A DNA stretch of 64,000 nt from Brevinema andersonii (lineage in GTDB: Bacteria > Spirochaetota > DYKD01). Positions 2,541-63,389 of the stretch are shown here, piece after piece (position 1 is the first letter of the stretch; the number at the start of each line of letters is the position of its first letter). The notes under the pieces are model-generated. The model did no database searches and had not been told where the DNA came from. It saw only the letters and a program-made list of their open reading frames with translations. The stretch spans positions 6,327 to 70,326 of the forward strand of contig DYKD01000005.1 of the NCBI GenBank assembly GCA_020722765.1. The letters run 5' to 3'. Both the position numbers and the translations under genes were made by a program.

Positions 2541-4244
2541 ATGGATCCAGCTACGTCCTTCATAGCCAACCTTCCAAAAAACACTCTCAAGATGATGCAG
2601 AGCCTGCAGGAAATATTTTTAGGCAATGAGAATGAACTGACAGATTCTGACAACCTTCTGAAAAGTATCCTTGACAGTGCCACTGAATATGCGATTGTTG
2701 CGGTGGACCTCCAGAAAAACATCATCACATGGAACTCCGGGGCAAAAAAAATCTTCGGTTATGAAAAGGAAGAAGTGATCGGGAAAAGGAAACTCTCTTT
2801 CCTGATTCCTGAGGAGGAGAAAAAATCCTCAACTGACAAGGAGAACATCCGTAAACAGATAGAGAAGGGTGTCTGGAAAGGTGAAACCATAAGGAAACGG
2901 AAGAATGGAAAGACGTTTTATGCCAGCATCATAGTCTCACCTTTAAAAAGTCGGAACAAAGTGATTATTGGATCAATAGCGATTATCCGTGATGTAACAA
3001 ATGAAAAGCTCTTGTATAGGGAAATTGAAGCGGCAAAAGTATTGAACGATAGCATTTTTGACTCTATCCCTTCAGGAATTGTCGTGCTGAAGCCTGATGG
3101 TGCAACTATAACAACGAATCTTGCATTCTTGGAATTTACAGGGAACCAAAATAAGCAGGTAAAAGGGAAACATCTTTGTGAGCTGTTGAACTGTGCAGAT
3201 GCACCCAATGCCTGTGATACCTCCTGTTTTCTTCCTTCCGCATTGAAACGGCTTTTATCGACTCCGAATAGATCCTTGGACATTGAAAGGGAATTCAACA
3301 TGAAAATCGGACAGAAAAGGATCCGCAGGTTTTTTCTGATAAAGATCATCAGGATGAAAGTAAGTGATGAAGAGACTCTCCTTGTCATCTTCAATGATTT
3401 TACAGAGAAGCGGCTCCTAGAACAGAAAATCCAGGGATATATGGACAACTTGAGAGCCAAGGTTGATGAGCGGACGCGTGAGATACAGAAGTCCAATAGG
3501 ATGTTCATGGAAGAGCTTGAAGTCGCGAAATTGATGCAGAAGGCCCTTCTTAAAAACCATATCAATGAGATTCCAAATTACAAATATCTTTATAAGTTCT
3601 ATCCCTCAAAACTCATTGGTGGAGATTTTTTCAATATACACAGAATCCGTGACGATTACTATTATTTCTATATTTCTGACGTCTCAGGTCATGGTGTTCC
3701 TGCAGCGATGTTGACAACCTTTTTTCATCAGGTCATCCGTGCCATGATCATCAATACGAACAGCCTTTCACCTGCACACATACTTACCCAGACGAACAAG
3801 GCGTTTGTCAAAGAAAATTTTCCAGGATCGCCTTTCGTCACTACATTTTTTTGTGTGTTGGATATCAAGACAAACAGGCTTACTTACTCTGTTGCAGGAC
3901 ATCACAATGCCATTCTTTTTAACAAGCAAGACAGGATTGTCCGTCCTTTCGGATATTTCAGCAAGCCTATTGGACTTTTGGAGGACTATGCTTTCCGTGA
4001 GGAAGTCATTGATATCAATGTCAATGACAATATTTTCCTGTTTACAGACGGGATACTTGAAGTGCTGGACATAGATAGCGGGAAAAGCTTCGGTTTCCAG
4101 CAACTGATGGATTTTGTCAAGATGCACATTGATAAGTCCGAATCTACAATTATAAAAGCCTTGATTGAATCACTGAAAAAGAGACAGGGGAGCCCACAGT
4201 TCAATGATGATGTCGCTATTCTGGATATAAAACGTGAAATTTAG
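2541..4244 (+). CDS. PAS-domain sensor fused to PP2C-type serine phosphatase (SpoIIE/RsbU family)
   Basis: N-terminal PAS/PAC-like region ('IVAVDLQKNIITWNSGAKKIFGYEKEEVIGK'), coiled coil, and C-terminal 'DVSGHGVPAAMLT'/'FTDG' motifs typical of SpoIIE/RsbU phosphatases. Confidence 0.8.
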   Translation: MDPATSFIANLPKNTLKMMQSLQEIFLGNENELTDSDNLLKSILDSATEYAIVAVDLQKNIITWNSGAKKIFGYEKEEVIGKRKLSFLIPEEEKKSSTDKENIRKQIEKGVWKGETIRKRKNGKTFYASIIVSPLKSRNKVIIGSIAIIRDVTNEKLLYREIEAAKVLNDSIFDSIPSGIVVLKPDGATITTNLAFLEFTGNQNKQVKGKHLCELLNCADAPNACDTSCFLPSALKRLLSTPNRSLDIEREFNMKIGQKRIRRFFLIKIIRMKVSDEETLLVIFNDFTEKRLLEQKIQGYMDNLRAKVDERTREIQKSNRMFMEELEVAKLMQKALLKNHINEIPNYKYLYKFYPSKLIGGDFFNIHRIRDDYYYFYISDVSGHGVPAAMLTTFFHQVIRAMIINTNSLSPAHILTQTNKAFVKENFPGSPFVTTFFCVLDIKTNRLTYSVAGHHNAILFNKQDRIVRPFGYFSKPIGLLEDYAFREEVIDINVNDNIFLFTDGILEVLDIDSGKSFGFQQLMDFVKMHIDKSESTIIKALIESLKKRQGSPQFNDDVAILDIKREI

Positions 4245-4403
4245 TCGTTTCACTCCTGTTCAGAAAGAAGAAGAATCAATCCATGAAGTGCTTATAACCT
4301 GTATCTGTGATGACTGTAACTAAAGATGGAACAAGACGGTGATGCCAAGACTCTAAAAAAGCCATGTGGTAGCAGGGATGTACACCTGAATAAAAGCTGA
4401 TTC

Positions 4404-5282
4404 TTAGATTACTTTCTGGTCAATGAGCTGTACGAATATATTGACAAGCTTTTCATCGAACTGTGTGTTTCTGTTATCTAAAAGTGTTTGTTTCGCAGTC
4501 TCTCTGTCGCGTGGCATTCTGTAGGGGCGTTTCGAAGTGATAGCGTCATAGGCTTCTGCTATGAAGAGTATCCTTGCAGTGATGGGAATCATTTCACCCT
4601 TGAGCCCTCTTGGATAACCGGATCCATCCCAGCGTTCATGATGGCAGAGTATGTCTGGAATGACATCCTTGAAAATCTCTATCCCTTTCAAGTATTCAGT
4701 TCCCAACAGCGAATGTTTTTTTACTTCCAGCATTTCCTTTGGGGAAAGGATTGTGGCCTTATGGACAATATCCATAGGGATGTTGATCATTCCGAGGTCG
4801 TGGAACATGCCACTGTAAGCGAGGTTTCCAATCAGATGTTGGTCCAAACCTGCCGCTTTTCCCAGAATCATGGCCAAACGTGCAACACGTGCGGAATGCC
4901 CCTGCATATAAACATCGCGTGATTCCAGGATTTTTACAAAGGAGACTATGAACTTGATGAAAGTCTCCTGCGAAGCCTTTAGTTTTGCTACAAGCTCTTT
5001 TTTCTTGTTCTCGGTTTCAGCCAGGAACTTGAGAGTCTGCATGTGGGCTTCTTCCAAAGACTGTATCTGTTCATAGTTGTTGAGGATGTCACGGTAATAA
5101 GTGCCAACAATCGCATCCTGTGGTTTCCCAAGGAGATTGGTGAAAGTGCTGTTGACATAAGCTATGATACCTTCTTCATCAACGGCAAGAACGCCTTCTT
5201 TGGCGTTGTTTAGGAACTGTTCAACTTTCTTTATGGATTCAACATCCTTCATGCTCTGTTCAGGAAGAATCGAGTTTTCCAT
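4404..5282 (-). CDS. PAS + HD-GYP domain protein (putative c-di-GMP phosphodiesterase)
   Basis: 'HSARVARLA' HD motif and 'HHERWDGSGYP' HD-GYP signature. Start set at internal ATG (MENSILPEQ) preceded by GAGG at spacing 6; the 40 codons further upstream in the track ORF look non-coding (AT-rich). Confidence 0.75.
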   Translation of the reverse strand: MENSILPEQSMKDVESIKKVEQFLNNAKEGVLAVDEEGIIAYVNSTFTNLLGKPQDAIVGTYYRDILNNYEQIQSLEEAHMQTLKFLAETENKKKELVAKLKASQETFIKFIVSFVKILESRDVYMQGHSARVARLAMILGKAAGLDQHLIGNLAYSGMFHDLGMINIPMDIVHKATILSPKEMLEVKKHSLLGTEYLKGIEIFKDVIPDILCHHERWDGSGYPRGLKGEMIPITARILFIAEAYDAITSKRPYRMPRDRETAKQTLLDNRNTQFDEKLVNIFVQLIDQKVI

Positions 5283-5422
5283 GGGAACCTCAAAGGTATT
5301 AATCTTAATTATTTTATATATTACTGCTTTTTTCAGTCTTTTCCCAAAAAAAGTGAATTTAATATTTTGAAAAAACAGGGCTTCTTTCTTATATTTCAGA
5401 ACCAAAACAGCAGGAAAATAAA

Positions 5423-7090
5423 ATGCATATCATAAAGAATGAACTTGAAAAAAGCCTTCAGAAAACACTGTCTGGTCTGTATGGTTCTGAGCTTGGGGGA
5501 AAGGCCGTGTTGGCACCTTCGAAAAAGCCGGAATTCGGGGAATACACGACCAATTGTGCCATGGTGCTTGCCAAAGTGCTTAAGAGGAATCCGTTGGAAA
5601 TCGCAGGAGAGATTGCATCAAAAGATATCCATAAGGGTATAGAAAAGATGGAAGCTGTCGCTCCGGGATTTATAAATATCCGCATTTCCCAGGCTTTTTA
5701 TTCACAATATCTTGGAATGGTCATGGACGGATCCTATTTTGCAACAGACCAACCAACTGAAAAAGTGATGCTTGAATTTGTGAGTGCGAATCCTACTGGT
5801 CCTCTGAATGCTGTCAGTGCGAGGGCTGCTGCAGTAGGTGATGCACTGGCACGACTCTTGAAATATACGGGACATGATGTTTTCACTGAATTTTATGTGA
5901 ATGACGCTGGAAACCAGGTGCGCTTGCTGGGGGAATCCCTTCTTTATCGGTACAGGCAGTTGAAAGGGGAAGACTCTCCTTTAAAAGAAGAGCATTACCA
6001 AGGTGAATATCTGATTGACATGGCAAAGGGAATTGCTTTTGTTGAATCGGAATTTTCTGGTTTAAAAGGGGATGATCTGGTTTCTTTCTTTAGCAGGTAT
6101 GCGATTGATTATCTTCTCTCCACACAGAAAAAAGACCTGGAAGTTTTCCGTACCCGTTTTGACCAATGGTTTCTTGAATCCACATTACATTCTGGAAACA
6201 GGCTTTCTGAATCCTTGGAAGTTTTGAAAAAGAATGGACATGTGTTTGAAAGTGAAGGCAAGCAGTGGTTCAAATCCACATCTTTTGGGGATGAGAAAGA
6301 CAGGGTTCTTGTCCGTGAAGATGGGACTCCGACTTATTTCCTTGCTGACATTGCCTATCACCATTCCAAGATCTTGCGTGGCTTTAACCGAATCTATGAT
6401 TTTTGGGGACCGGACCATCATGGTTATATTCCCAGGATGAAAGGAGCCATGCAGGCACTAGGATTCGATCCGAAATCTTTTGAAGTTTTTATTGTACAAC
6501 AGGTAAACCTTCTTGATAAAGGCGAGAAAGTCAAGATGTCAAAGCGTCAAGGAAAGATTATCCTGATGCGTGATATTGTCGCTGAAGCAGGTGTTGACGT
6601 GACAAGGTATTTCATGCTCATGCGTAATACGAGTTCCCATCTTGATTTTGACATGGAACTGGCAGTCAAACAGTCCAATGAGAATCCTGTCTATTATATC
6701 CAGTATGTGCATGCTCGGATTTGCAGCATATTCAGGCAGTCAAAAGAGAAGAATATTCCGCTTTTAACGAATACAAAGGCATTGGAAAAATACAGCTTGA
6801 ACGCAACTGAAAAAGAAATTGTGAAACAAGTCTTGATTTTCAATGAAATGGCTATGGAAGCTGCAAAGCAAATGGAACCGAACATCATGTCCCAGTATCT
6901 CTCCAATTTAGCCGCCATGTTCCATAAATTTTATAACGAATATTCGGTTTTGAATGAACCTGATCAGGATGCCAGAAATGCGAGAGCTCTTCTCATTGCT
7001 GCTGTCCGTGAAGGAATCAGAAGAGGACTTGATCTCCTGGGAATCAGCGCTCCAGAAAGCATGTCAAGGAATGAAGAGAATGAGGGTTGA
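5423..7090 (+). CDS. argS: arginine--tRNA ligase (ArgRS), with non-canonical HIGH motif
   Basis: Full-length similarity pattern to bacterial ArgRS (FVSANPTGPL..., YVNDAGNQ, GPDHHGYI, KMSKRQGK). The class I HIGH position reads N-A-V-S (5807-5818). Confidence 0.85.
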   Translation: MHIIKNELEKSLQKTLSGLYGSELGGKAVLAPSKKPEFGEYTTNCAMVLAKVLKRNPLEIAGEIASKDIHKGIEKMEAVAPGFINIRISQAFYSQYLGMVMDGSYFATDQPTEKVMLEFVSANPTGPLNAVSARAAAVGDALARLLKYTGHDVFTEFYVNDAGNQVRLLGESLLYRYRQLKGEDSPLKEEHYQGEYLIDMAKGIAFVESEFSGLKGDDLVSFFSRYAIDYLLSTQKKDLEVFRTRFDQWFLESTLHSGNRLSESLEVLKKNGHVFESEGKQWFKSTSFGDEKDRVLVREDGTPTYFLADIAYHHSKILRGFNRIYDFWGPDHHGYIPRMKGAMQALGFDPKSFEVFIVQQVNLLDKGEKVKMSKRQGKIILMRDIVAEAGVDVTRYFMLMRNTSSHLDFDMELAVKQSNENPVYYIQYVHARICSIFRQSKEKNIPLLTNTKALEKYSLNATEKEIVKQVLIFNEMAMEAAKQMEPNIMSQYLSNLAAMFHKFYNEYSVLNEPDQDARNARALLIAAVREGIRRGLDLLGISAPESMSRNEENEG

Positions 7091-8417
7091 ACATCCTAAG
7101 ATACATTCTGTAAAGGAGCTTACACTCCTTATCAAACGTGATTTGGAAAATGCTTTTTCCAGGCTTTGGGTCATGGGAGAAATCACTAACTTCAAGAAAA
7201 GCCCAACAGGACATTTCTATTTTGATCTGAAAGACGAAGTGGCACAGATTTCTGTAGCTTTGTTCAAAGGGATGGCTCTCAAAATGAACCTGGCAGGAAT
7301 CCTCGGCCTTGCCTCGCTTTCCCAGTTGGATGATTTCAGGACTGTACAGGCCAAAGTGAATGGCAAAAAGGTAAAAGTATTTGGATCCATCAGTGTATAT
7401 GAGAAATCAGGGCGTTACAATCTAATCGCTGAAATCGTTGAGATGGAAGGTCTTGGTTCCCTGCAACAGCAGTTTGAAGAACTGAAGAAGAAGCTTCACT
7501 CAAAAGGATATTTTGAACACTCAAGAAAGCGTACGCTCCCGGAATATCCTTCCAGCATTGGTATCGTGACATCTCCCACAGGCGCAGCCATCAGGGACAT
7601 GCTCAATATTCTGAAAAGGCGTTGGCCGGACATCCATGTCATTCTTTATCCTTCCCTGGTCCAAGGAAAAGAGGCCGCTGCGGATCTTGTCCAAGGAATC
7701 AGGATTTTCAATCATTATAGGAATGTTGATCTCATCATCATAGGTCGAGGGGGCGGGTCGATTGAAGACCTTTGGGCATTCAATGAGGAGATTGTCGCTG
7801 ATGCCATATATGAATCTTCTCTGCCTGTCGTATCTGCTGTAGGTCATGAGGTCGATTTTACAATCGCGGATTTCACAGCAGACCTGCGTGCTCCAACACC
7901 TTCAGCAGCAGCGGAACTGGTAGTGAAGGTGAAATCCGATGTTCTTGAAAGAATCCATCAGTATGGACAGGATATGGAAGAAGTATTGAAATCTGAAGTC
8001 TCATACTTGCGTGAAAAGCTGGTGCCCTATTCGGATTCTCATCTCAAGAAAAGCCTTTTACATGCGATGTCCCTTTTTAAGGAACGTATCAAAGCCTGTT
8101 CAGAACGCAAGATGGCCAAAGCCCTGGTCCATCTGACTGCCCAGTATGATTTGAAGCTTGGGCATGTTTCTGAGAAGCTGTTGGCAGTCATGCAGAAGAT
8201 CCGAATCGCATGGGAAAACAGTTTCCAAAAAATCTCAGACAAGTTGAATCTTCTTGATCCTTTGGATATATTAAAGCGTGGTTATAGTGTGACGTATGAG
8301 GTCGGTTCCGGTCGGATTATCCGTGATGGCGCGGATATCAGTGAAGGAGGGCTTCTCCGCACAGTGTTACATAAAGGCGAGCTTATTTCAAGAGTGGAAA
8401 GAGGTGCTGAAAAATGA
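7071..8417 (+). CDS. xseA: exodeoxyribonuclease VII large subunit
   Basis: OB-fold N-terminus (LWVMGEITNFKKSPTGHFYFDLKD), catalytic core 'IGIVTSPTGAAIRD...IIGRGGGSIEDLWAFNEE', long coiled-coil C-terminus. Start ATG 7071 overlaps argS 3' end by 20 nt; the track ORF extends further upstream in frame only because no stop intervenes. Confidence 0.85.
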   Translation: MKRMRVEHPKIHSVKELTLLIKRDLENAFSRLWVMGEITNFKKSPTGHFYFDLKDEVAQISVALFKGMALKMNLAGILGLASLSQLDDFRTVQAKVNGKKVKVFGSISVYEKSGRYNLIAEIVEMEGLGSLQQQFEELKKKLHSKGYFEHSRKRTLPEYPSSIGIVTSPTGAAIRDMLNILKRRWPDIHVILYPSLVQGKEAAADLVQGIRIFNHYRNVDLIIIGRGGGSIEDLWAFNEEIVADAIYESSLPVVSAVGHEVDFTIADFTADLRAPTPSAAAELVVKVKSDVLERIHQYGQDMEEVLKSEVSYLREKLVPYSDSHLKKSLLHAMSLFKERIKACSERKMAKALVHLTAQYDLKLGHVSEKLLAVMQKIRIAWENSFQKISDKLNLLDPLDILKRGYSVTYEVGSGRIIRDGADISEGGLLRTVLHKGELISRVERGAEK

Positions 8418-9499
8418 TAGTTCCATCATACCAGATTGCAGATTTATGGAATAAGCATAAGATCCAAGGGATAGATCTTGTTGTTGATCTTACGCCTGAA
8501 GGACTTGATTCCCATGAGATGTATCACAAGTCAATGACCAAAGAGACTTATGAGAACCTGATTTCAGGTCATACAGGTGTTTTCAATTTTGTCTATAATC
8601 CTGTACTTAAGGATTTCCTCCTCAAGAATTTTTCTGAATATTACCAACCTGCGTATCATGAACGTATCTCCATGCTCAAGATGCTCATCAGACAGTATGA
8701 AATGACGAATGAGTTTTCCAAAGGTAAAAAGACAGTCTATAAGAAACGTTTTGTAAAGAGTCTGGAAACGATCAAGGATGTTGATGGGAAAAGGATACTC
8801 GTGGAGTTCAATCAGGAAGTGGATCTCAAGGATCTGGATGTCATCCGTGTAAAATTCAACGAGGAATATACTCTCAAATATACGACGTCAGAAAAAGGGA
8901 TACTGCTGATTTATGATACGAAAGGATATGTGAAGAATCCGCAGCTTACAAAATTGCAGTTCCAGGTCAGAAAGATTTTCCATGATATAACATACAAGCG
9001 TGTCCAGTCTGCTGATGTCACCCGGGGATTTACAAGCTACTTTAAGACATTCGAGGGGAATAATCCGAAGGTTGTTGTATTCTGTGGAAGGACAGAAAAG
9101 AACGAGTATCTCTCAAAACAGATCAGGGCTTTTGATCCTTTTGTGAAAATCATCTGGGTAGAAGTGGAAGATCTCAATAAGAATGCGGACGATATTTTTG
9201 ACAAGATACTTCCAAAGCTTGGTTCTGATTATGCCTATGAGACATTGGTCTATGACCAGGAAGACAAGACAAAAGAGAATATGCCTCAGGGAGAAATCAA
9301 GGATTTGAAGGAACGAATAAATATATTGTCCCGTGATTTCACAATCAAGGAATATATAGAGATTGAGAACCATCTTATTGACAAGATGAGGAAGTTCGTT
9401 GTAAGAAACCAGTTCGCACATCTCAACAACATCTTGGATGCTTTGAAGATTTCCAAGGATATCATATTTAACAAGTTGCTGGACGGGTATCTTGACTAA
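8414..9499 (+). CDS. hypothetical protein (Lys-rich, cytoplasmic, no recognisable domain)
   Basis: 361-aa ORF. Start ATG overlaps xseA stop (ATGA) and its stop overlaps ribD start, implying translational coupling in one operon. No motif recognised by eye. Confidence 0.6.
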   Translation: MIVPSYQIADLWNKHKIQGIDLVVDLTPEGLDSHEMYHKSMTKETYENLISGHTGVFNFVYNPVLKDFLLKNFSEYYQPAYHERISMLKMLIRQYEMTNEFSKGKKTVYKKRFVKSLETIKDVDGKRILVEFNQEVDLKDLDVIRVKFNEEYTLKYTTSEKGILLIYDTKGYVKNPQLTKLQFQVRKIFHDITYKRVQSADVTRGFTSYFKTFEGNNPKVVVFCGRTEKNEYLSKQIRAFDPFVKIIWVEVEDLNKNADDIFDKILPKLGSDYAYETLVYDQEDKTKENMPQGEIKDLKERINILSRDFTIKEYIEIENHLIDKMRKFVVRNQFAHLNNILDALKISKDIIFNKLLDGYLD

Positions 9500-10604
9500 A
9501 AGCGCATTCACTTTAGAGGATATCCGCTTCATGCGGATGGCTGTTGATGAATCCATGCGACACTGGGGGGAGACTTCTCCAAATCCTTCGGTAGGAACTG
9601 TCCTTGTAAAAAACAATAAAGTCATTGGAAAATCTGTCACTGCCATTGGGGGAAGACCGCATTCTGAAGCGGCATTACTCCAGAAACTTGGCAGGAAAGC
9701 TTTTGGTTCTACAATGTACGTCACTCTTGAACCCTGTTCGCATTATGGACGCACCCCCCCCTGTGCTGAGCTTGTTGTAAAAAGTGGATTGGCAAAAGTG
9801 TTTGTCGGTATGAAGGATCCTAATCCGTTGGTCAATGGGAAAGGAATTCGTATCATCAGGAACGCTGGTATTCCCGTGGAACTTGGGCTTCTTAAGAATG
9901 AATGTGCAGAAGTCAATGAATGGTTTTTTAAAAAGTTCCATTCGCAATATCCTTATGTTATTGTCAAGGCGGCTCTCTCCTGGGACGGGAAGATTGCCAC
10001 TCAGAAAGGTGATAGCAAGTGGATATCATCAGAAGAGTCCAGGGGGCAAGCTCATTTTTTACGCAGGACTGTGGATGCTGTGATTGTCGGGAAAGGGACT
10101 GTTCTTGCTGATAATCCTTCTCTCAATGTCAGGAATATCGTTTCAACAAGAAATCCGCACAAAGTTGTCCTTGACAGGGAAGGGGATCTGTCTGCATCAT
10201 TGGAAATTTTTAAATCTTTCAAAGGGGAGCAGGTTTTCTATTTCACTTCAAAAAAATGCAAGAACCGTTTTCATAAGGTATCCCATATCCGTCATATTCC
10301 TGTTTCTATCGACAGGAGAGGGCTCAATTTGAAAGAGATCCTTCTGGCTTTGAAAGCCGAGGGAGTTGATTCGATCCTTTCAGAAGGCGGAGGATCCTTG
10401 AACGCATCTTTGTTAGAGCAAGGTTTTGTGGATAAGGTCATATTGTTTTTGGCTCCAAAACTGATTGGTGGAAAAGAGGCGCCCACTTTTTTTGAAGGGC
10501 ATGGGGCTGATACTGTGATGCAGGCTTTGCGGCTTAAGGACATTTCAGTGACACAGATGGGGAATGACATGATGCTGAAAGGTTTTCTCAGGAGGTATGC
10601 CTGA
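9492..10604 (+). CDS. ribD: bifunctional riboflavin biosynthesis deaminase/reductase RibD
   Basis: CMP/dCMP-type zinc deaminase motifs (HSEAALL, LEPCSHYGRTPPC) plus a C-terminal RibG-type reductase domain. TTG start at 9492; alternative ATG 9531. Confidence 0.85.
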   Translation: MTKSAFTLEDIRFMRMAVDESMRHWGETSPNPSVGTVLVKNNKVIGKSVTAIGGRPHSEAALLQKLGRKAFGSTMYVTLEPCSHYGRTPPCAELVVKSGLAKVFVGMKDPNPLVNGKGIRIIRNAGIPVELGLLKNECAEVNEWFFKKFHSQYPYVIVKAALSWDGKIATQKGDSKWISSEESRGQAHFLRRTVDAVIVGKGTVLADNPSLNVRNIVSTRNPHKVVLDREGDLSASLEIFKSFKGEQVFYFTSKKCKNRFHKVSHIRHIPVSIDRRGLNLKEILLALKAEGVDSILSEGGGSLNASLLEQGFVDKVILFLAPKLIGGKEAPTFFEGHGADTVMQALRLKDISVTQMGNDMMLKGFLRRYA

Positions 10605-11188
10605 TGTTTACAGGCCTGATCCGAAGTCTTGGAACTGTGGGAAGCTTTACATCTGGAAACCTGGTCATCAATGTTGATAGAGGGTTTCTCACAGGCATGA
10701 AGACAGGCGACAGTGTCGCGGTCAATGGCACTTGCCTCTCTATCACTTCCATGACTGAAAGTTCTTTCACTGTTTTCGTTTCTGAAGAGACGAAAAAGCT
10801 TACCACTGTTTCTATTCTTGGTCAGGGCTCTACTGTGAATCTTGAAACACCCATGCGTCTTGGTGACATGCTGCATGGTCATCTTGTCCAAGGGCATGTG
10901 GATGGAATAGGTATGGTTGAGGAGTTTCACAGGAGCGGGCAGGGCTGGATCTTGAAAGTCAAATATCCAAAAGAACTGGATGCCTATATTGTCCATAAAG
11001 GTTCGATTGCAGTAAACGGGATAAGCCTTACAGTAGCAAAAAAATATTCACTGGTTTTTGAAGTGGCCATCATTCCAGAAACAGTGGATCGCACATCGTT
11101 GAAGACCATAAGGAAGAATGACAAGGTGAATCTGGAAACGGACATGGTTGCAAAATATGTGGAAAGCCTTTTGAAAACCGAAAGATAA
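10604..11188 (+). CDS. ribE: riboflavin synthase alpha chain
   Basis: 'MFTGLIRSLGTV' N-terminus and internal lumazine-binding repeat (GSIAVNGISLTV). ATG overlaps ribD stop. Confidence 0.85.
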   Translation: MFTGLIRSLGTVGSFTSGNLVINVDRGFLTGMKTGDSVAVNGTCLSITSMTESSFTVFVSEETKKLTTVSILGQGSTVNLETPMRLGDMLHGHLVQGHVDGIGMVEEFHRSGQGWILKVKYPKELDAYIVHKGSIAVNGISLTVAKKYSLVFEVAIIPETVDRTSLKTIRKNDKVNLETDMVAKYVESLLKTER

Positions 11189-11203
11189 GAAAGGCGGTCA
11201 CAT

Positions 11204-12160
11204 TTGATATTGGACAAATTCCTGAAAGGTGATGGACGGGGGAAGGCTTTTTTTCTTGCACCCATGGCGGGGATTACTCATAGCGCCTTCAGAAGGCTTG
11301 TATCTGATTTTGGCGGATATGATGCGCTTTTCACTGAGATGATTCATGGACGTGCTGTTCTCCACAGAAAAAACGAGGAATCACCGTTCACTAAGAAACG
11401 GGAATGTGAAGGGGATGTCATTTATCAGCTTCTTCTTACAGGAGAAGAGAATCTCTCAGCAGTTATTGACAATATAAACTCTATTAATCCTGCAGGGATT
11501 GATTTGAATGCGGCATGTCCTGCTCCAGAAGTCCAGAAATACGGTTCGGGCTTTGCCCTTTTTATGGATCTTCCCAGATTTGCAAAAGTGTTGGAATCAC
11601 TTAGGAAATACTGGAAAGGCTCTCTTTCTGTGAAATGCAGGTTGGGATTTTCTTCGGATCATTGGGAGCCGCATTTTTTCGAAGCCTTAAAAATCATTCG
11701 GAATTCGGATATTGATTTTCTGACTGTGCATCCAAGGTTTGCTGGCGAGAAACTGAAACGTCCCGCACGTTGGGATCTGATCCCTGAAATCAAGGAACAT
11801 TCAAAAATTCCATTGATCATCAATGGTGATATTTTTTCTATGGAAGATGTCCAGACCCATCCATCAACTTTAGGATTAGCAGATGGATATATGATTGGCA
11901 GGATGGCTGCTGTAAAACCCTGGATATTCAATGAATTCCAGGGCAAGAATCCGATCATATCCTATAGGGAAGTATGGAGCCGGTTCTATGATTATGCGCG
12001 TGAGGACCTTCCTCAAGAAATGCTTCTCCAGCGTGTAAAGGATTTTACCGCTTATTTTGCAAGGAATTTTTTCTTTGGGCAGGAACTGTTTGGGCAGATA
12101 CAGCATGTGAGTGACATAAGTACGATGAGAGACCGTGTCATGGCTTTTTTAGGGAAGTAG
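11204..12160 (+). CDS. dus: tRNA-dihydrouridine synthase
   Basis: 'LAPMAGITHSAFRRL' FMN-binding N-terminal motif and TIM-barrel pattern of the Dus family. Confidence 0.8.
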   Translation: MILDKFLKGDGRGKAFFLAPMAGITHSAFRRLVSDFGGYDALFTEMIHGRAVLHRKNEESPFTKKRECEGDVIYQLLLTGEENLSAVIDNINSINPAGIDLNAACPAPEVQKYGSGFALFMDLPRFAKVLESLRKYWKGSLSVKCRLGFSSDHWEPHFFEALKIIRNSDIDFLTVHPRFAGEKLKRPARWDLIPEIKEHSKIPLIINGDIFSMEDVQTHPSTLGLADGYMIGRMAAVKPWIFNEFQGKNPIISYREVWSRFYDYAREDLPQEMLLQRVKDFTAYFARNFFFGQELFGQIQHVSDISTMRDRVMAFLGK

Positions 12161-12304
12161 CCACAGCTTGTATTGAAACCTTCGTTACAAGGGATATGAG
12201 GTCTTTTTCTGATTAGTTGATTTTGCAGTGACGTATGGATATTTTTATTTTTCCTCTCGCAGGAAAATTGATTTTTTGCCGAAGGTAGGCTTGGAGATGT
12301 GACG

Positions 12305-15988: not shown

Positions 15989-16034
15989 TTGACTTCTTTT
16001 GTAATGTTTTTGTATATTAGAAATAGACTAAAAT
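15989..16034 (+). promoter_or_regulatory. sigma70-like promoter (TTGACT-N18-TATATT) plus conserved downstream box for AraR-like regulator 1
   Basis: -35 TTGACT 15989-15994, -10 TATATT 16013-16018, followed by AGAAATAGACTAAAAT. The whole element is duplicated upstream of the paralog at 17294-17338. Confidence 0.55.
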
Positions 16035-16047
16035 GTGGAGTCAAGCT

Positions 16048-17178
16048 ATGATAAAACCAGAATTAGATTTTTCTTCAGAAATTCCCTTATATATGCAGTT
16101 GACTGAAATATTGACCACTGAGTTACTAACGAAGGGCTTTAAAGTGAATGATCCATTTTATACTGAAAAGGAATTGTTATCTCGATTTAATACCAGCTCT
16201 ATCACCATTAAAAGGGCAATGAGTATATTGGTAAAAAGGGATTTGATATATAGGCAGAGGAAGAAAGGCTCTTTTGTAAAATCACTGCAAATTGCAGAAA
16301 ATGGCAAACTGATTGGAAAAGATTTGGTAAAAACCATATTGTTCATTTTCCCGAAAACTGTCAAATATGCGGAAGTCAATTTTTTCTATTCATCCCTTTT
16401 GATGCAGATGGAGCTATCTTTAAGTTTGCGGAAATTCCGTTCTGAAATCTATACGAGCGGAGTTTCTGAAATCAAGGATGATGAAATTTTTTCCAGGATC
16501 AAGGAGAAAAAGTTTGCAGGAATTTTTCTCATAGGTGGTAGTTTCAGCAAAAAAATCGTAGATAGGGTCAGATTTTCAGGGTTACCTGCGGTCGTCGTGG
16601 ATAGTTTGGATTTATGGAGCGATTGTTATTCTATAAATATTGAAAACCTTTTAAGTGCCAAGACCATGACTGAATATCTGATACAGAATGGACATAAGGA
16701 CATTCTCTTTTTCGGGGTGAGGAATCATCCAATAAGCGCGGAAAGAGAGACCGGATTTCTTTCGGCATTAAGAGAGGCTGGTTTGGACGCTCATCCTGAC
16801 CGTATTCGCAGATGGAAGGGGTTTGAATTTGAAGGTGGTACGAGCCTCATGCAGACTGTTTTGGATGAGAGAAAAATTTTACCGACCGCTATTTTTGCGG
16901 CAAATGATGCGATGGCTATTGCTGCCATGAAAACAGCTATGATGAATGGACTGACGGTTCCCAATGATATCAGTTTTGTCGGGTTTGATAATGTTCCTAT
17001 GGCTTCTCAAATGCATCCTGGTCTGACAACGATGGATGTCCCTCTCGAAGAGATCGGGAAAAATTCAATCAGGCTGTTATTTGGTCAGATGGACAACGTT
17101 AAAATCCAGGAGCCTAATATCAGGATTAGGTCAAGATTGGTAGAAAGGGAATCAGTAAAAAAAATGGGTAACGTTTGA
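16048..17178 (+). CDS. AraR-type transcriptional regulator (GntR-family winged HTH + LacI/GalR-like sugar-binding domain), paralog 1
   Basis: N-terminal GntR HTH ('ELLSRFNTSSITIKRAMSILVKRDLIYRQRKKGSFV') and C-terminal periplasmic-binding-protein fold ('AIFAANDAMAIAAMK...ISFVGFDN'). Start ATG 16048 by analogy with the paralog (GGAG + 7 nt). Confidence 0.75.
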   Translation: MIKPELDFSSEIPLYMQLTEILTTELLTKGFKVNDPFYTEKELLSRFNTSSITIKRAMSILVKRDLIYRQRKKGSFVKSLQIAENGKLIGKDLVKTILFIFPKTVKYAEVNFFYSSLLMQMELSLSLRKFRSEIYTSGVSEIKDDEIFSRIKEKKFAGIFLIGGSFSKKIVDRVRFSGLPAVVVDSLDLWSDCYSINIENLLSAKTMTEYLIQNGHKDILFFGVRNHPISAERETGFLSALREAGLDAHPDRIRRWKGFEFEGGTSLMQTVLDERKILPTAIFAANDAMAIAAMKTAMMNGLTVPNDISFVGFDNVPMASQMHPGLTTMDVPLEEIGKNSIRLLFGQMDNVKIQEPNIRIRSRLVERESVKKMGNV

Positions 17179-24474: not shown

Positions 24475-27186
24475 ATGACCCGTAAAATCCCGGTTGCTCT
24501 CTTTTCCTTGGTTCTGTCTTTAACTTTCTTCTGTTTGAATGATATGTATGCCCAAGATGATGACTTTAGCGGGTTAAACCGATATCGTTTATCAGATTTT
24601 AACGGCAGTTTGCAAGGTTGGTTTGTTGCCAAGGAATCAGAGAGTAAAATTGTCAATGTCATGATTGCCAAACCGAATGATGTTTTTTCAGATCCTGCAG
24701 ACAGGGTTGGCAGAGGAAATGGCGTTCTCAAGCTGGATTTAAAATATGGTGTTTCTTCCTGGGAATCTGGGATGATAAAAATGCATCCTTTCGAAGCGGA
24801 TTGGTCGAAGGTGGTCGCTATTCAGTTCGATGTCTACCTTGAGGAGGGAGGTCCCAATTTATTTGCCACTCCTTTTATCATGTCTGACCAGTGGTCGAAG
24901 TGGTCACAGGATAAGAAACAGACGCCACTTACTGGAGGGGAGTGGGTGACTGTCACTTATCTTCTCAAAGATCAGGAAAATATCGATGCCACTAAGATCA
25001 GTGCCCTCGGTTTGTTGATTTGGGGTCCCATTGCTTCTCCTTACGAAGGTTCTGTATATGTTGATAATATTGTCCTCATTTCAAAAGGGGAAATGTATGC
25101 CAAGCCTGTTCTTCCTACATTGGCAATCAAGTCGAAAAAGAATATAAAAATTACAATTGACCCTTCCAAAACAGGTGGTGAAGTCAGCTCCAATCTGATT
25201 TCGCTTAATTTTGGTGGTAACATGAGTGGTGATGAACGTCTCTTGAAATATTTGAAATATGCAGGTCCTGGCGGACTTTTCAGGAGTTGGTCTTTTGGTG
25301 ATTATGGGAATCAGATGCAGGCTGTCAATCCTTCAAAAGGAAAATATAATTGGAAAGAATATGATGCTTATATAAAGGACGTCATGAATGCTGGCTGGAA
25401 ACCTTTGATTACATTGGGGGAATGCCCCTTTTGGAATGCTCCCAAGGATAGTAGCGGGAAGCCAAATGTGAAAGGACCCCCGCTAAGTTTTGAAGCATGG
25501 GCGCAGATGGCAGCAGATTTTGTTTTCCATTATAATAAGGAGCTGGGGTTAGGGATCAAATATTGGGAAATTTGGAACGAGCCTGATTTGAGCATGTTCT
25601 GGCAAGGGACTGAAGCAGAATATAACCAGTTGGTTAAACTGGCATCTGAAGCTATGAAAAAGGTGGATCCCTCAATCACAATTTTAGCAGGGGCATGGGC
25701 AAACCCTTGGTCGATTTCAGCACGTGTGAAATCGTTATTGCGGGAGGCTCCCAAAGTGGATGTCGTTTCTTATCATAACTATCTGACTTCTCCCAAATCA
25801 AAAGAGCAGGTGATTTTCAAGAAAATCCCAACTTTGGAAGCCCCTGTTTATAAGAACAATCTGTTTTTGAAGGATATTGCCAAAGAGTTGCAATTATCAA
25901 AAGTCCCTTCCATGATGGTTTCTGAGATGAATATCACTGCGGATATTAATTATGACCCAAGGATCGAAACCATGTTATATGCCATGTATTGGGGATCGGC
26001 GTTATATCATTATGTCCATCAAAATTTGGATGCAGCAGTCTATTTTGATTTTGCAAATTTCAGCTTCGGTTTGATAGGACACAAAGCCAGACCTGTTTAT
26101 TATGTTTTCCCTTTGTTGATGAAGAAAGCCATGTTCCCTGGTTCTAAGTGGCTCAAAGTGGATGGGGAAGCGATTGATTTGAAGGTTTTGGCTCTGAAGA
26201 AGGATAATTACCTTAATATTGTTGTTCTTAACACATCGCAAGAGAATGTCCAATATGATGTTTCGTTTGATATTTTGAATCCGCCGGCAATTTCAGAATT
26301 CTATCTCTATAGGTTGGATGACAAGAATACTGGTGAAAAAACAATTGGAAAAGTACCGTATACTCCCGGTATGAAATTATCGTGTCCTCCCTATAGCATT
26401 TCCGTCCTCAAAGGAAAAGTTAATCCTGAAGGTAAATGGCCTGTCTTGGCTAAATATACTCCTGCGCCTTCTCTGGGAGCTTTGGGATTGGCCTCTTCTG
26501 GGCAATTCGTATTTAATGGTGAAAAAGCCATGTTTTCTTTGGCTAAGACACCTGTTAAACTCGATGGTAGTTTAGTTGAATATGCTTCATGCCAACCGAT
26601 AAAAGTTGGCAATGCGAAGAAAGTGACTGTCGGAAAAGATGTTTGGCAAGGAACATCAGATGCCAGTGCTGAGTTCTTTTTGATGTATGATGCTAAGAAT
26701 CTCTATGTGGCTGGGCATGTAGCTGATGATGTCGCCCTATTGAATAATCAGACGGAAAAGAATGATGTTTGGAATGGGGATGGTATTGAATTCTTGATTG
26801 GTACAAAGTACAATCATAATTCGAGAGATGAACGCGGTGAATATGATTACCAGTTATTCCTTATCCCTGCTTTTAATGATAAGGGGAGTGGGGTGAGAAC
26901 CATGCTGTATTCCGCATTTGGTCAGGGAACGGGTATCAGATCGCGCGAGTTGCTTGATAGCGCCATGTCAATAAAAAGGACTGGGACAGGGTATGATTTT
27001 GAGGCCAGAATCTCCATCAAAAACTTTCCTGAGTTAGCTTCGTTCAAATCTGGTGATGAATTCAGATTCGATATCGGATTAAACGATGCGGATGTTGAAA
27101 TACGAGATGTACAGTTGTATTGGAACGCTGAAGATGGTGGAGCTTGGAATAATCCGGATTTCTGGGGCGTTGCTAAACTGAAGTGA
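24475..27186 (+). CDS. clan GH-A glycoside hydrolase (GH39/GH5-like) with N-terminal CBM-like domain and C-terminal CBM9-like domain, secreted (paralog a)
   Basis: 'YWEIWNEPD' acid/base motif and 'ILAGAWANP...VVSYHNY' pattern. C-terminal 'WQGTSDASAEFFLMYDAKNLYVAGHVADD...DGIEFLIG' CBM9-like. Signal peptide. Confidence 0.65.
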   Translation: MTRKIPVALFSLVLSLTFFCLNDMYAQDDDFSGLNRYRLSDFNGSLQGWFVAKESESKIVNVMIAKPNDVFSDPADRVGRGNGVLKLDLKYGVSSWESGMIKMHPFEADWSKVVAIQFDVYLEEGGPNLFATPFIMSDQWSKWSQDKKQTPLTGGEWVTVTYLLKDQENIDATKISALGLLIWGPIASPYEGSVYVDNIVLISKGEMYAKPVLPTLAIKSKKNIKITIDPSKTGGEVSSNLISLNFGGNMSGDERLLKYLKYAGPGGLFRSWSFGDYGNQMQAVNPSKGKYNWKEYDAYIKDVMNAGWKPLITLGECPFWNAPKDSSGKPNVKGPPLSFEAWAQMAADFVFHYNKELGLGIKYWEIWNEPDLSMFWQGTEAEYNQLVKLASEAMKKVDPSITILAGAWANPWSISARVKSLLREAPKVDVVSYHNYLTSPKSKEQVIFKKIPTLEAPVYKNNLFLKDIAKELQLSKVPSMMVSEMNITADINYDPRIETMLYAMYWGSALYHYVHQNLDAAVYFDFANFSFGLIGHKARPVYYVFPLLMKKAMFPGSKWLKVDGEAIDLKVLALKKDNYLNIVVLNTSQENVQYDVSFDILNPPAISEFYLYRLDDKNTGEKTIGKVPYTPGMKLSCPPYSISVLKGKVNPEGKWPVLAKYTPAPSLGALGLASSGQFVFNGEKAMFSLAKTPVKLDGSLVEYASCQPIKVGNAKKVTVGKDVWQGTSDASAEFFLMYDAKNLYVAGHVADDVALLNNQTEKNDVWNGDGIEFLIGTKYNHNSRDERGEYDYQLFLIPAFNDKGSGVRTMLYSAFGQGTGIRSRELLDSAMSIKRTGTGYDFEARISIKNFPELASFKSGDEFRFDIGLNDADVEIRDVQLYWNAEDGGAWNNPDFWGVAKLK

Positions 27187-34682: not shown

Positions 34683-34714
34683 TGACACGGACTGTAACTC
34701 ATCCGGAGGGATAT

Positions 34715-59443: not shown

Positions 59444-59517
59444 GGTGAATGTAGCTCAGTTGGTAGAGCTCCAGATTGTGGTTCTGGCTGTCGCGGGTTC
59501 GACCCCCGTCATTCACC
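59444..59517 (+). tRNA. tRNA-His (anticodon GTG) with genome-encoded G-1; no encoded CCA
   Basis: Hand-folded cloverleaf: acceptor GTGAATG/CATTCAC, D-arm GCTC-AGTTGGTA-GAGC, anticodon arm CCAGA-TTGTGGT-TCTGG (GTG at 34-36), T-arm GCGGG-TTCGACC-CCCGT, discriminator C73 pairing with G-1 (59444). Confidence 0.85.
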
Positions 59518-59594
59518 CATTTCCAATGTATTCTTCACTTCATAAAAATTTCATCCCTTAGATGTTCTTTACGTAACGAGGTTTTTACTGTGCA

Positions 59595-60557
59595 ATGAAC
59601 CGTTTTATCGTGGTTTTGACATTCTGCGCTTTCACCCTGGTCTTGCCCCATGTCATTCATGCGGAAACCAATGGTAAGCCTGTAGTCACTGTAAAAGTGG
59701 ACAAAAAGGAGATGGTCATAGGAGATCATCTTAAGTATGATGTCAATGTTCTTTCTCCTGCTGACTTGGCTGTTGTCTTTCCTGCATTGGAAGAGAAACT
59801 AGGGCATTTTGACATTCTCTCAAGATCCCGTGTTCAGAAAAAAGTGAATTTTGGGAAACAGCAGCGCATCTCACTCAATCTTGTGATTAGTGTATATGAC
59901 CGTGGCGAATATACGTTGCCGGCTTTTCCTGTCATGTATATTGACAAGTCCGGTACAACAAATGTGGCTGTCTCGGAAGCTGTCAAAGTGAAAGTGAACG
60001 GTGTCTTGAGTGGACGCATCTCTCCAAAATTGCGGGATGTAAAGCAACAGGAAAGGCTGGCAGACCCGTTTTTGTGGCTTAAGATACTTCTTCTTTTACT
60101 CCTTGCAGCAGGAGGATATCTCCTTTACAGGTTTAGGGACCATTTTTTCAAAAAGAAACTTCTTCCTGTTATTGCAAAACTTGAACCTGAACTTCCTCCA
60201 GACATTGAAGCCTTGAACAGGTTGAACGATGTTGTCCAAAGAGATGTCCTAGGGCAGTCCGGTTTGAAGGAATATTACAGCATCATCAATGAGATCATAC
60301 GTCATTATCTGCACCGTGTCTATGGACTGGTAACTCTGGAACGCACGACTGATGAGATCGTTTCAGATATGAGACGATTGGCTCTCTCTTCATCCTTACA
60401 TGATGTGATTGCGGATTTCCTCATGGATAGCGATTTGGTCAAGTTTGCAAAGAGTGTCCCTTCAAAGAATGAAATCAATGGTTTTCTGGAAATTGCTTTT
60501 TCCATTATTGAACAGACAAAGCCAAAAGTGGTCCAGCCAGCAGGAGAAGAAGCATGA
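59595..60557 (+). CDS. hypothetical secreted/membrane protein, first gene of the Bat (aerotolerance) operon
   Basis: Signal peptide and an internal TM segment (WLKILLLLLLAAGGYLLY). Stop overlaps batA start (ATGA). Confidence 0.5.
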   Translation: MNRFIVVLTFCAFTLVLPHVIHAETNGKPVVTVKVDKKEMVIGDHLKYDVNVLSPADLAVVFPALEEKLGHFDILSRSRVQKKVNFGKQQRISLNLVISVYDRGEYTLPAFPVMYIDKSGTTNVAVSEAVKVKVNGVLSGRISPKLRDVKQQERLADPFLWLKILLLLLLAAGGYLLYRFRDHFFKKKLLPVIAKLEPELPPDIEALNRLNDVVQRDVLGQSGLKEYYSIINEIIRHYLHRVYGLVTLERTTDEIVSDMRRLALSSSLHDVIADFLMDSDLVKFAKSVPSKNEINGFLEIAFSIIEQTKPKVVQPAGEEA

Positions 60558-63347: not shown

Positions 63348-63389
63348 CACGGAATGGAAAAATCGTTTCAATCATATTATCTTAAAGGG

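What the first reader, a model, noticed from the sequence alone, without database searches (positions are those of the whole stretch)
5807..5818. ArgRS with its class-I HIGH motif replaced by N-A-V-S
The protein is otherwise a canonical bacterial ArgRS and retains KMSKRQG. Where Bacillus-type enzymes read PTG.LHLGHARG, this one reads PTGPLNAVSARA; both histidines are lost. The HIGH histidines contact ATP in class I synthetases. Loss of both is rare. It raises the question of whether this is the sole functional ArgRS, a compensated variant, or a paralog with a non-canonical role. The gene heads a translationally coupled housekeeping operon, which argues that it is used.
Basis: partly seen in the sequence, partly recalled or inferred. 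Interest (0 to 1): 0.55.

Follow-up and report, generated by a model that had tools for sequence, protein, structure and literature searches.

The report
Histidine-less ArgRS, normal in its lineage
The arginyl-tRNA synthetase gene really does read N-A-V-S where textbooks expect H-I-G-H, but this is the conserved, selected form of the enzyme in Leptospira and several other bacterial phyla, so it is almost certainly the working housekeeping enzyme, of a variant type that I could not find described in the searchable literature.

Summary
Observation confirmed: codons 5807-5818 of argS (5423-7090, +) encode N129-A-V-S132 at the HIGH position, and KMSKR is intact. It is not an error or a decaying copy. 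Against a syntenic 76%-identical relative, pS is 0.83 (saturated) and pN is 0.16, and the motif peptide is identical although 7 of its 13 codons differ.

It is not rare in this subfamily. About 84 of 164 aligned sequences (mostly representatives of 50%-identity clusters) carry x-x-V-[S/N/Q]. So do all 120 Leptospira/Leptospiraceae ArgRS retrieved, and proteins labelled Eisenbacteria, Calditrichota, KSB1 and Bacillota.

All other ArgRS features are present: argS equivalog 415 bits (cutoff 262), three domains, AF2 pLDDT 93, TM 0.93 to 3FNR, invariant Arg-binding residues.

The motif co-varies with three other positions. Loss of the first His goes with P330 in WG(P)DHHG (421/425 against 1/76). 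Loss of the fourth His goes with obligatory K374 of KMSK (416/418, never Thr). Q360 is specific to this type.

Best reading: a compensated, functional housekeeping ArgRS. Bacterial TrpRS (T-I-G-N) is a verified precedent. Absence of a second argS in the genome could not be tested. No literature description was found.

The parts
5423..7090 (+). argS coding sequence, 555 aa, arginine--tRNA ligase of the N-x-V-S type
   Evidence: ORF. TIGR00456 argS 414.9 bits against a cutoff of 261.65. Pfam Arg_tRNA_synt_N + tRNA-synt_1d + DALR_1. AF2 pLDDT 93.3. Top 20 PDB fold matches are all ArgRS.
5441..5686 (+). N-terminal tRNA D-loop-binding domain (residues 7-88); N85 is invariant
   Evidence: PF03485, 64.4 bits. 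N85 is 100% conserved in both motif types.
5789..5791 (+). N123, invariant Asn six residues upstream of the HIGH position. It is the equivalent by spacing of yeast ArgRS N153, the N-terminal 'backbone bracket' that binds the adenosine phosphate.
   Evidence: Invariant in all types. The assignment of N153 comes from PMC5919687; the mapping by spacing is my inference.
5807..5818 (+). N129-A130-V131-S132, occupying the class I HIGH position
   Evidence: Sequence. Alignment to 3FNR HIGH. N-cap of helix 130-148 in the AF2 model. N90%/V99%/S65%+N31% in 84 sequences of this type, against H/G/H 100% in 53 canonical ones.
5792..5830 (+). Extended clade signature PTGPLNAVSARAA (residues 124-136), including A133 and A135 where canonical enzymes have Gly
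   Evidence: Identical peptide in L007 with 7 of 13 synonymous codon differences.
6404..6424 (+). W328-G-P330-D-H-H-G334 loop after strand 323-328. P330 (6410-6412) replaces the Ala of canonical enzymes and tracks loss of the first HIGH histidine.
   Evidence: P in 83/84 against 0/53. Across 501 sequences, non-His at 129 goes with P330 in 421/425 and His goes with non-Pro in 75/76. Secondary structure.
6497..6505 (+). Q359-Q360-V361 on the strand leading to the KMSK loop. Q360 is specific to the N-x-V-S type (canonical enzymes have L/M/F).
   Evidence: Q360 in 69/84 against 0/53. Q359 and V361 are conserved in both types.
6533..6547 (+). K371-M-S-K374-R375, the class I KMSKS-type loop. K374 is obligatory in enzymes lacking the fourth HIGH histidine.
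   Evidence: Sequence. K374 is 98% against 57%. 416/418 non-His-132 sequences have K374 and none has Thr, whereas His-132 sequences split 48 K to 34 T.
6698..7063 (+). DALR anticodon-binding domain (residues 426-547)
   Evidence: PF05746, 110 bits.
5367..5395 (+). Sigma-70-like promoter candidate TTGAAA-17-TATATT, 28 nt upstream of the argS ATG
   Evidence: Consensus match only; as a class these are not more frequent than in shuffles.
7080..8417 (+). xseA (exonuclease VII large subunit). Its ATG at 7080 overlaps the argS stop at 7088-7090.
   Evidence: Called gene and Pfam Exonuc_VII_L in L006/L007; sequence.
8414..11188 (+). orf361 (no Pfam match), ribD and ribE. These are downstream genes with overlapping or abutting stops and starts, syntenic in L007.

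Best explanation
This is the organism's working arginyl-tRNA synthetase. It belongs to a large, old group of KMSK-type bacterial ArgRS in which the HIGH signature H-x-G-H has been replaced by N-x-V-[S/N], followed by A-R-A-A instead of G/A-R-G-A.

Shown here: the replacement is conserved under strong purifying selection. It is the form annotated as ArgRS in cultured Leptospira and in several other phyla. Every other ArgRS determinant is intact (N-terminal D-loop domain with N85, Arg-binding E118/N123/Y305/D309, R134, G-x-D-H-H loop, KMSKR, DALR domain). It is accompanied by specific correlated changes.

Inferred mechanism: adenosine is still held by the backbone 'brackets' common to class I enzymes. 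The amide and hydroxyl side chains of N129 and S132 supply hydrogen bonds to the ATP phosphates in place of the imidazoles, as T and N do in bacterial TrpRS (T-I-G-N). Transition-state stabilisation leans on the KMSK lysine K374, which these enzymes never lose. The adenosine pocket is repacked by V131, P330 (loop after strand 4) and Q360 (strand 5), which lie next to the HIGH loop in the Rossmann sheet.
For: Family membership: argS equivalog 414.9 bits against a cutoff of 261.65; three ArgRS domains; AF2 pLDDT 93.3, pTM 0.91; top 20 PDB fold hits all ArgRS, 3FNR TM 0.93 at 2.4 A.

Selection: pS 0.83 against pN 0.16 with the syntenic L007 gene, and the motif peptide is identical with 7 of 13 codons changed.

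Distribution: about 100 of the 120 nearest homologues; 84 of 164 aligned sequences, mostly representatives of 50%-identity clusters; all 120 Leptospira/Leptospiraceae ArgRS, including those on chromosomes of 3.8-4.3 Mb; proteins labelled Eisenbacteria, Calditrichota, KSB1, Limnochordia and Ca. Darwinibacter, on contigs up to 5.2 Mb.

Functional residues are invariant in both types.

Co-variation: P330 83/84 against 0/53; Q360 69/84 against 0/53; K374 82/84 against 30/53. Over 501 sequences, non-His-132 goes with K374 in 416/418 and non-His-129 goes with P330 in 421/425.

Precedent: PDB 1I6K TrpRS reads T-I-G-N with KMSKS.

Literature: class I adenosine binding is by backbone atoms, and HIGH side chains rarely contact the ligand outside the ATP/transition state (PMC5919687). 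The ArgRS ATP site is weak and tRNA-dependent, and many ArgRS already lack KMSK (PMC3956977).

Genomic context: first gene of a conserved overlapping gene run.
Against: No enzymology was done or found for any N-x-V-S ArgRS, so activity is inferred. That Leptospira has a single argS rests on my memory of its annotation, not on a test here. Gly to Val at the third position has no precedent that I verified, since TrpRS keeps the Gly. I had no coordinates from the model, so the proximity of 330 and 360 to the motif is argued from Rossmann-fold topology and secondary structure, not measured. The co-variation statistics are not corrected for phylogeny. The T-x-A-H/MSTR enzymes, which lack the first His and the KMSK lysine, show that a simple 'one signature compensates the other' rule is incomplete.
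Confidence: 0.87

Rival explanations
1. It is a paralogue with a non-canonical role (a tRNA-binding, regulatory or biosynthetic ArgRS-like protein), and a canonical H-x-G-H argS elsewhere in the genome does the charging.
For: Both ATP-contacting histidines and the Gly are gone. ArgRS-derived non-synthetase proteins exist, for example NCBIfam NF045898 NrtL, which gives a weak partial hit. The rest of the genome could not be searched.
Against: The NrtL score is 91 against a cutoff of 340, while the argS equivalog is passed at full length. All Arg-binding, KMSK and tRNA-binding residues are invariant. Every Leptospira ArgRS retrieved is of this type and is the protein named arginine--tRNA ligase there. 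The type occupies about half of the nearest sequence clusters across several phyla, which fits an essential orthologue and not an accessory paralogue. Strong purifying selection. There is no second copy in the window or in held loci.
Confidence: 0.05
2. It is the only ArgRS, but it is catalytically weakened: a slow enzyme tolerated by slow-growing organisms, with no real compensation.
For: From my memory of the TyrRS/MetRS literature (not checked here), mutating HIGH histidines in other class I enzymes lowers kcat. Leptospira and many of the MAG lineages are slow growers (general knowledge, not tested).
Against: The replacement residues are themselves tightly conserved (V131 99%, N129 90%, S/N132 96%). 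They are tightly coupled to P330, Q360 and K374. That is the signature of an optimised alternative, not of drift. The type also occurs in taxonomically diverse lineages.
Confidence: 0.07
3. It is a sequencing or assembly artefact, or a pseudogene.
For: None beyond the unusual motif.
Against: The ORF is intact. The identical protein is found on three independent contigs. The same peptide is encoded with different codons in a relative, and hundreds of homologues share the motif.
Confidence: 0.005

Closest known systems
KMSK-type bacterial ArgRS with canonical HIGH (Campylobacter jejuni ArgRS, PDB 3FNR; Bacillus-type ArgRS)
   Same: Same family, length, three-domain architecture and fold (E 1.3e-97; TM 0.93, rmsd 2.4 A). 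Same ANPTGP lead-in, R134, TY..DIAYH, G.DHHG, Q.V and KMSKR elements.
   Different: H-I/L-G-H-A-R-G-A becomes N-A-V-S-A-R-A-A. Ala330 becomes Pro, L/M360 becomes Gln, I235 becomes Gln, A307 becomes Leu. The second KMSK lysine is obligatory rather than exchangeable with Thr.
Leptospira ArgRS (for example L. kirschneri/interrogans-group P0271, L. santarosai P0274)
   Same: Same motif class (N-I-V-S-A-R-A-A), P330, Q360 and KMSKR. Annotated as the arginine--tRNA ligase of a cultured genus.
   Different: Only about 43% identical to the window protein. About 30 residues longer. Position 2 is Ile rather than Ala.
Bacterial tryptophanyl-tRNA synthetase (B. stearothermophilus TrpRS, PDB 1I6K), HIGH position T-I-G-N
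   Same: A class I synthetase that natively lacks both HIGH histidines, uses small polar residues (Thr, Asn) in their place, and keeps KMSKS.
   Different: A different family (subclass Ic, dimeric, no tRNA requirement for activation). It keeps the Gly at position 3. The polar residues are arranged T...N rather than N...S.
KMSK-less ArgRS with a compensating HIGH-loop lysine (T. thermophilus, E. coli and yeast type; Sekine et al. 2001, cited in PMC8975779; the paper itself was not readable here)
   Same: Shows that in ArgRS the two class I signatures are evolutionarily plastic and that loss in one element is balanced by another.
   Different: The direction is opposite. There, KMSK is lost and HIGH is kept with an added lysine upstream. 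Here, HIGH is lost, KMSK is strictly kept, and the HIGH-loop position is Gly126.

Membership tests
Arginine--tRNA ligase (ArgRS, TIGR00456 / EC 6.1.1.19) | Full-length match to the curated equivalog model above its cutoff | tested here: met
   414.9 bits against a cutoff of 261.65, residues 4-547.
Arginine--tRNA ligase (ArgRS, TIGR00456 / EC 6.1.1.19) | Architecture: N-terminal D-loop-binding domain + class I catalytic domain + DALR anticodon-binding domain | tested here: met
   PF03485, PF00750 and PF05746 all above their cutoffs.
Arginine--tRNA ligase (ArgRS, TIGR00456 / EC 6.1.1.19) | ArgRS three-dimensional fold | tested here: met
   AF2 pLDDT 93.3, pTM 0.91. Top 20 PDB matches are all ArgRS; 3FNR TM 0.93.
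Arginine--tRNA ligase (ArgRS, TIGR00456 / EC 6.1.1.19) | Arginine-binding residues (equivalents of E. coli D118, Y313, D317 and the Asn before HIGH) | tested here: met
   E118, N123, Y305 and D309 are present and 98-100% conserved in both motif types. The E. coli residues are from PMC3956977; the mapping is by alignment pattern.
Arginine--tRNA ligase (ArgRS, TIGR00456 / EC 6.1.1.19) | KMSK(S)-type loop | tested here: met
   K371-M-S-K-R375.
Arginine--tRNA ligase (ArgRS, TIGR00456 / EC 6.1.1.19) | tRNA-Arg aminoacylation activity | not testable with these tools
   Needs enzymology or complementation.
Arginine--tRNA ligase (ArgRS, TIGR00456 / EC 6.1.1.19) | It is the only ArgRS of its genome (orthologue, not accessory paralogue) | tested here: inconclusive
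   No second copy in the 64-kb window or in held loci.
Class I aminoacyl-tRNA synthetases (textbook signature definition) | HIGH signature (H-x-G-H) at the N-terminus of the first Rossmann helix | tested here: not met
   The structural position is present (strand 114-122, helix 130-148), but it reads N-A-V-S. The same failure occurs natively in TrpRS, T-I-G-N.
Class I aminoacyl-tRNA synthetases (textbook signature definition) | Rossmann-fold catalytic domain with a KMSKS loop after the fifth strand | tested here: met
N-x-V-[S/N] ArgRS group (defined here) | N129, V131, S/N132, A133, A135 together with P330, Q360 and K374 | tested here: met
   The window protein has all eight.
NrtL, ArgS-related anticodon-binding protein (NF045898) | Score above the curated cutoff; a protein made of the anticodon-binding part only | tested here: not met
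   91.4 bits against a cutoff of 340. The match covers only the DALR region of a full-length ArgRS.
Decaying or pseudo-synthetase copy | Relaxed selection, loss of substrate-binding residues | tested here: not met
   pN 0.16 against pS 0.83. Substrate-binding residues are invariant.

The most novel reading that the evidence does not exclude
N-x-V-[S/N] + P330 + Q360 + obligatory K374 is a third, mechanistically distinct way for ArgRS to activate arginine. The ATP-binding geometry would differ because Val fills the space that the HIGH glycine normally leaves for the adenosine, and transition-state stabilisation would be carried by the KMSK lysine and amide/hydroxyl hydrogen bonds instead of imidazoles. 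It would be a natural experiment on what the HIGH signature is for. Because pathogenic Leptospira use it and the host enzymes do not, it would also be a selective ATP-site drug target.
Probability: 0.3. Interest if true: 0.6.

Novelty: new variant of a known kind. Interest (0 to 1): 0.4.

Why it matters
HIGH is one of the two signatures that define class I aminoacyl-tRNA synthetases, and its histidines are taught as transition-state contacts for ATP. This work shows a large, multi-phylum group of ArgRS, including that of the pathogen genus Leptospira, that lacks both histidines and the glycine yet is conserved like an essential enzyme. The changes follow simple rules. Losing the first His goes with Pro in the G-x-D-H-H loop. 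Losing the fourth His goes with an obligatory KMSK lysine. These rules give concrete, testable hypotheses about functional redundancy between the two signatures. They also warn against motif-based calls of 'inactive' synthetases, and they point to an ATP pocket that differs from the canonical ArgRS. For this particular window the practical message is that the gene is ordinary for its lineage and should be annotated as argS.

Tried and rejected
1. Sequencing error or pseudogene: rejected.

2. Looking for the same genome in the GTDB representative genomes to search for a second argS.

3. Taxon identification of the window. There is no rRNA and only tRNA-His. Exact look-ups of 16 window or related proteins returned no organism names. 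The nearest named ArgRS relatives are Spirochaetota MAGs.

4. Literature. No paper holds the motif strings. Searches on the ArgRS HIGH motif, KMSK, non-canonical signatures, Leptospira argS and aaRS evolution surveys, and reading PMC10810186, PMC8975779 and PMC11580382, found no description of an N-x-V-S ArgRS. Konno 2009 and Sekine 2001 are not held. The leptophage 'arginyl-tRNA synthetase' mention was an irrelevant weak annotation.

5. No clade-specific basic residue appeared among the co-varying columns, and the HIGH-loop lysine position is Gly126 in all types.

6. A simple see-saw model (lose HIGH, keep KMSK). It is only partly right, because T-x-A-H enzymes lack the first His and mostly have MSTR. 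The rule that holds concerns the fourth position specifically.

7. Monophyly of the N-x-V-S type. An NJ tree with the motif masked groups most of them, but with canonical sequences interspersed. It is too crude to count origins.

8. Measuring distances in the AF2 model. The tool returns no coordinates, so proximity is argued from topology only.
Full report
**1. The observation**

The ORF at 5423..7090 (+) encodes 555 aa. Codons 5807-5818 are AAT GCT GTC AGT, which encode N129-A-V-S132, within EFVSANPTGPLNAVSARAAAVGD. The protein passes the curated argS equivalog model at full length (TIGR00456, 414.9 bits against a cutoff of 261.65). It has the three ArgRS Pfam domains. The best solved relative is Campylobacter jejuni ArgRS 3FNR (E 1.3e-97). 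HMMER aligns its ANPTGPLHIGHARGA to ANPTGPLNAVSARAA here. KMSKRQG is at residues 371-377 (window 6533-6553). So the description is correct at the stated coordinates.

**2. Not an error, not decay**

The identical protein is on three independent contigs. A 76%-identical orthologue sits in the same neighbourhood (PAS-SpoIIE, HD-GYP on the opposite strand, argS, xseA, orf361, ribD, ribE, dus) in L007. Between the two argS genes, synonymous sites are saturated (pS 0.83) while pN is 0.16. The 13-residue peptide PTGPLNAVSARAA is identical although 7 of its 13 codons differ. This is strong purifying selection on the gene and on the motif.

**3. How common the motif is**

- Among the 120 best homologues in the 5.8-billion-protein set, about 100 read PTGP[LM]N[AVI]V[SN]ARA. 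They range from 76% to about 45% identity and most named ones are Spirochaetota MAGs. The Bacillus-type sequences at the same distance read HLGHARGA.
- In an exhaustive search of 1.84 billion 50%-identity representatives, the 150 nearest clusters split as follows: about 60 N-x-V-[S/N], several V/L-x-V-[S/N/Q], about 50 H-x-G-H, about 10 T-[VLI]-A-H, plus H-x-A-S, H-M-G-N, T-L-G-R and others.
- A lead from my memory, that Leptospira ArgRS is of this type, was tested with a reconstructed query. Real database sequences came back from L. noguchii, L. kirschneri (a cluster of 88 on a 4.27-Mb contig), L. santarosai, L. tipperaryensis, L. fainei, L. licerasiae and many Leptospiraceae MAGs. All 120 read PTGPLNIVSARAA with KMSKR.
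- A profile of the non-spirochaete subgroup found the same motif in proteins labelled Candidatus Eisenbacteria, Calditrichota, KSB1, Bacillota/Limnochordia and Ca. Darwinibacter acetoxidans, on contigs up to 5.2 Mb. Of those 112 hits, 110 are x-x-V-[S/N/Q/G].
- Two of the GTDB loci (an unclassified MAG and a 'Cytophagia' MAG) are N-V-V-S. A Chloroflexota MAG is T-L-G-R and a 'Gammaproteobacteria' MAG is T-L-A-N.

**4. Everything else an ArgRS needs is present**

In a 164-sequence alignment, 84 are x-x-V-[S/N/Q], 53 are H-x-G-H and 27 are other. The following are invariant or nearly so in both types:

- N85 in the D-loop-binding domain.
- E118, S121 and N123 before the motif, and R134 after it.
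- Y305 and D309 (the T-Y...D-I-A-Y-H arginine-binding element; E. coli D118, Y313 and D317 are the residues shown to matter in PMC3956977).
- K316, G329, D331, H332, Q359, M372 and R375.

AlphaFold2 with a 48-sequence alignment gives pLDDT 93.3 and pTM 0.91. N129 caps helix 130-148 directly after strand 114-122. The top 20 Foldseek PDB matches are all ArgRS, and 3FNR has TM 0.93 at 2.4 A. The three best-matching solved ArgRS sequences, whose alignments were shown, all read H-x-G-H at this position; from my own knowledge the other solved ArgRS do too.

**5. What changed together with the motif**

Contrasting the two types column by column gives these differences, apart from positions 129, 131, 132, 133 and 135:

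| Residue | N-x-V-S type | H-x-G-H type |
|---|---|---|
| 330, in W-G-x-D-H-H-G after strand 323-328 | P in 83/84 | P in 0/53 (mostly A) |
| 360, in Q-x-V before KMSK | Q in 69/84 | Q in 0/53 (L/M/F) |
| 235 | Q 81% | I 77% |
| 357 | I | L |
| 307 | L | A |
| 374, second KMSK lysine | K in 82/84 | K in 30/53 (rest Thr) |

The intermediate motif types separate two couplings. Over all 501 ArgRS sequences held (redundant, not phylogenetically corrected):

- A non-His at position 129 goes with P330 in 421 of 425 sequences. His goes with a non-Pro in 75 of 76. The T-x-A-H enzymes, which lack only the first His, have P330. The H-x-A-S enzymes, which lack only the fourth His, have A330.
- A non-His at position 132 goes with K374 in 416 of 418 sequences and never with Thr. 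His-132 sequences split 48 Lys to 34 Thr. The one Arg-132 sequence (T-L-G-R) has Thr.
- Q360 is specific to the N-x-V-S type.

**6. Mechanism**

Shown: conservation, selection, distribution, intact substrate and tRNA determinants, and the couplings above.

From the literature: in 441 of 448 class I structures the adenosine phosphate is held by backbone hydrogen bonds from two 'bracket' residues. In yeast ArgRS these are N153 and residue 405. HIGH side chains, especially the first His, rarely touch the ligand except in the ATP/transition state (PMC5919687). ArgRS binds ATP weakly and only with tRNA and Arg present, and many ArgRS already lack KMSK (PMC3956977). A HIGH-loop lysine compensates there, according to Sekine 2001 as cited in PMC8975779.

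Verified precedent: B. stearothermophilus TrpRS in the PDB reads T-I-G-N at the HIGH position with KMSKS intact.

Inferred:

- N123, which corresponds to yeast N153 by spacing, and the strand before KMSK still clamp the adenosine through backbone atoms.
- N129 and S132 hydrogen-bond the phosphates.
- K374 becomes indispensable for transition-state stabilisation once the fourth His is gone.
- V131, P330 and Q360 repack the pocket. They lie in the loops after strands 1, 4 and 5, which are neighbours in a Rossmann sheet.

I had no coordinates, so these proximities are topological arguments, not measurements.

**7. Rivals**

- *Paralogue with a canonical argS elsewhere.* This is unlikely given the Leptospira result, the breadth of the type, invariant catalytic residues and selection. 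It was not formally excluded, because I could not scan a whole genome. There is no second copy in the window or in held loci.
- *Sole but crippled enzyme.* This is disfavoured, because the replacement residues and their partners are themselves tightly conserved.
- *Artefact.* Refuted.

**8. Comparison with what is known, and novelty**

By every family test except the HIGH signature this is an ArgRS. By the textbook class I signature test it fails HIGH, as TrpRS does. Seven literature searches and several papers read gave no description of an N-x-V-S ArgRS or of the 129-330 and 132-374 couplings. The non-open literature was not searchable, so prior description cannot be excluded. The sequences themselves have long been in databases, annotated as ArgRS. 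I therefore rate the window gene as ordinary for its lineage. I rate the variant class as a new (uncharacterised) variant of a known kind, of moderate interest to synthetase specialists.

**9. Context**

A sigma-70-like site (TTGAAA-17-TATATT, 5367-5395) precedes argS, but such matches are no more frequent than in shuffles. The xseA ATG at 7080 overlaps the argS stop at 7088-7090. The xseA/orf361 and orf361/ribD junctions overlap by 4 and 8 nt, and the ribD stop shares base 10604 with the ribE start.

Noticed in passing
window 12200-59600: About 47 kb lies between dus (11204-12160) and the Bat/VWA operon (59595-63900). The syntenic relative L007 has only a 0.5-kb DUF6512 gene there. The extra DNA is rich in glycoside hydrolases (GH39+CBM9 at 24475-27186, GH39-like at 34622-36784, GH94 at 42360-44753). 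It also holds a GntR/LacI-type regulator at 16033-17178, a beta-helix protein, and three giant ORFs of 1315-1817 aa. tRNA-His(GTG) at 59445-59518 sits at its right edge. GC is 0.41 against 0.42-0.43 in the flanks. It looks like a polysaccharide-utilisation island gained or lost next to a tRNA gene.
   Followed up: partly
window 8414-9499: orf361 has no Pfam match. It is 77% identical in the relative L007 and is wedged between xseA and ribD with overlapping stop and start codons on both sides. It is a conserved protein of unknown function inside the argS-xseA-ribDE gene run.
   Followed up: partly
P0135, P0163, P0169, P0191, P0213, P0217, P0261 and others (representative set); L003 10001-11640; L005 10001-11518: The same ArgRS subfamily holds further histidine-poor motif classes. 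T-[VLI]-A-H is followed by G-R-Q-A-A and mostly has MSTR instead of KMSK, so the first His and the KMSK lysine are both missing. Other classes are H-x-A-S, H-M-G-N, T-L-G-R (Chloroflexota) and T-L-A-N. The T-x-A-H/MSTR class is arguably more puzzling than N-x-V-S.
   Followed up: partly
L003 10001-11640: The Chloroflexota MAG argS (T-L-G-R type) matches in two different reading frames: residues 4-95 at 10001-10282 and residues 117-547 at 10354-11640. This suggests a frameshift or an assembly error in that record. A full-length T-L-G-R protein (P0218) exists elsewhere.
   Followed up: no
window 2541-5405: Upstream of argS are a PAS-PAS-SpoIIE (PP2C-type) phosphatase (2541-4244, +) and a divergently transcribed PAS-HD-GYP protein (on the - strand, called as 292 aa ending near 5282). 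Both are conserved at the same place in L007, and the phosphatase is 85% identical.
   Followed up: no
window 11204-12196: The dus homologue of L007 aligns to window 11264-12196, but the window ORF stops at 12160. So the window Dus appears about 12 residues shorter at its C-terminus than its relative, or the alignment runs through the stop.
   Followed up: no
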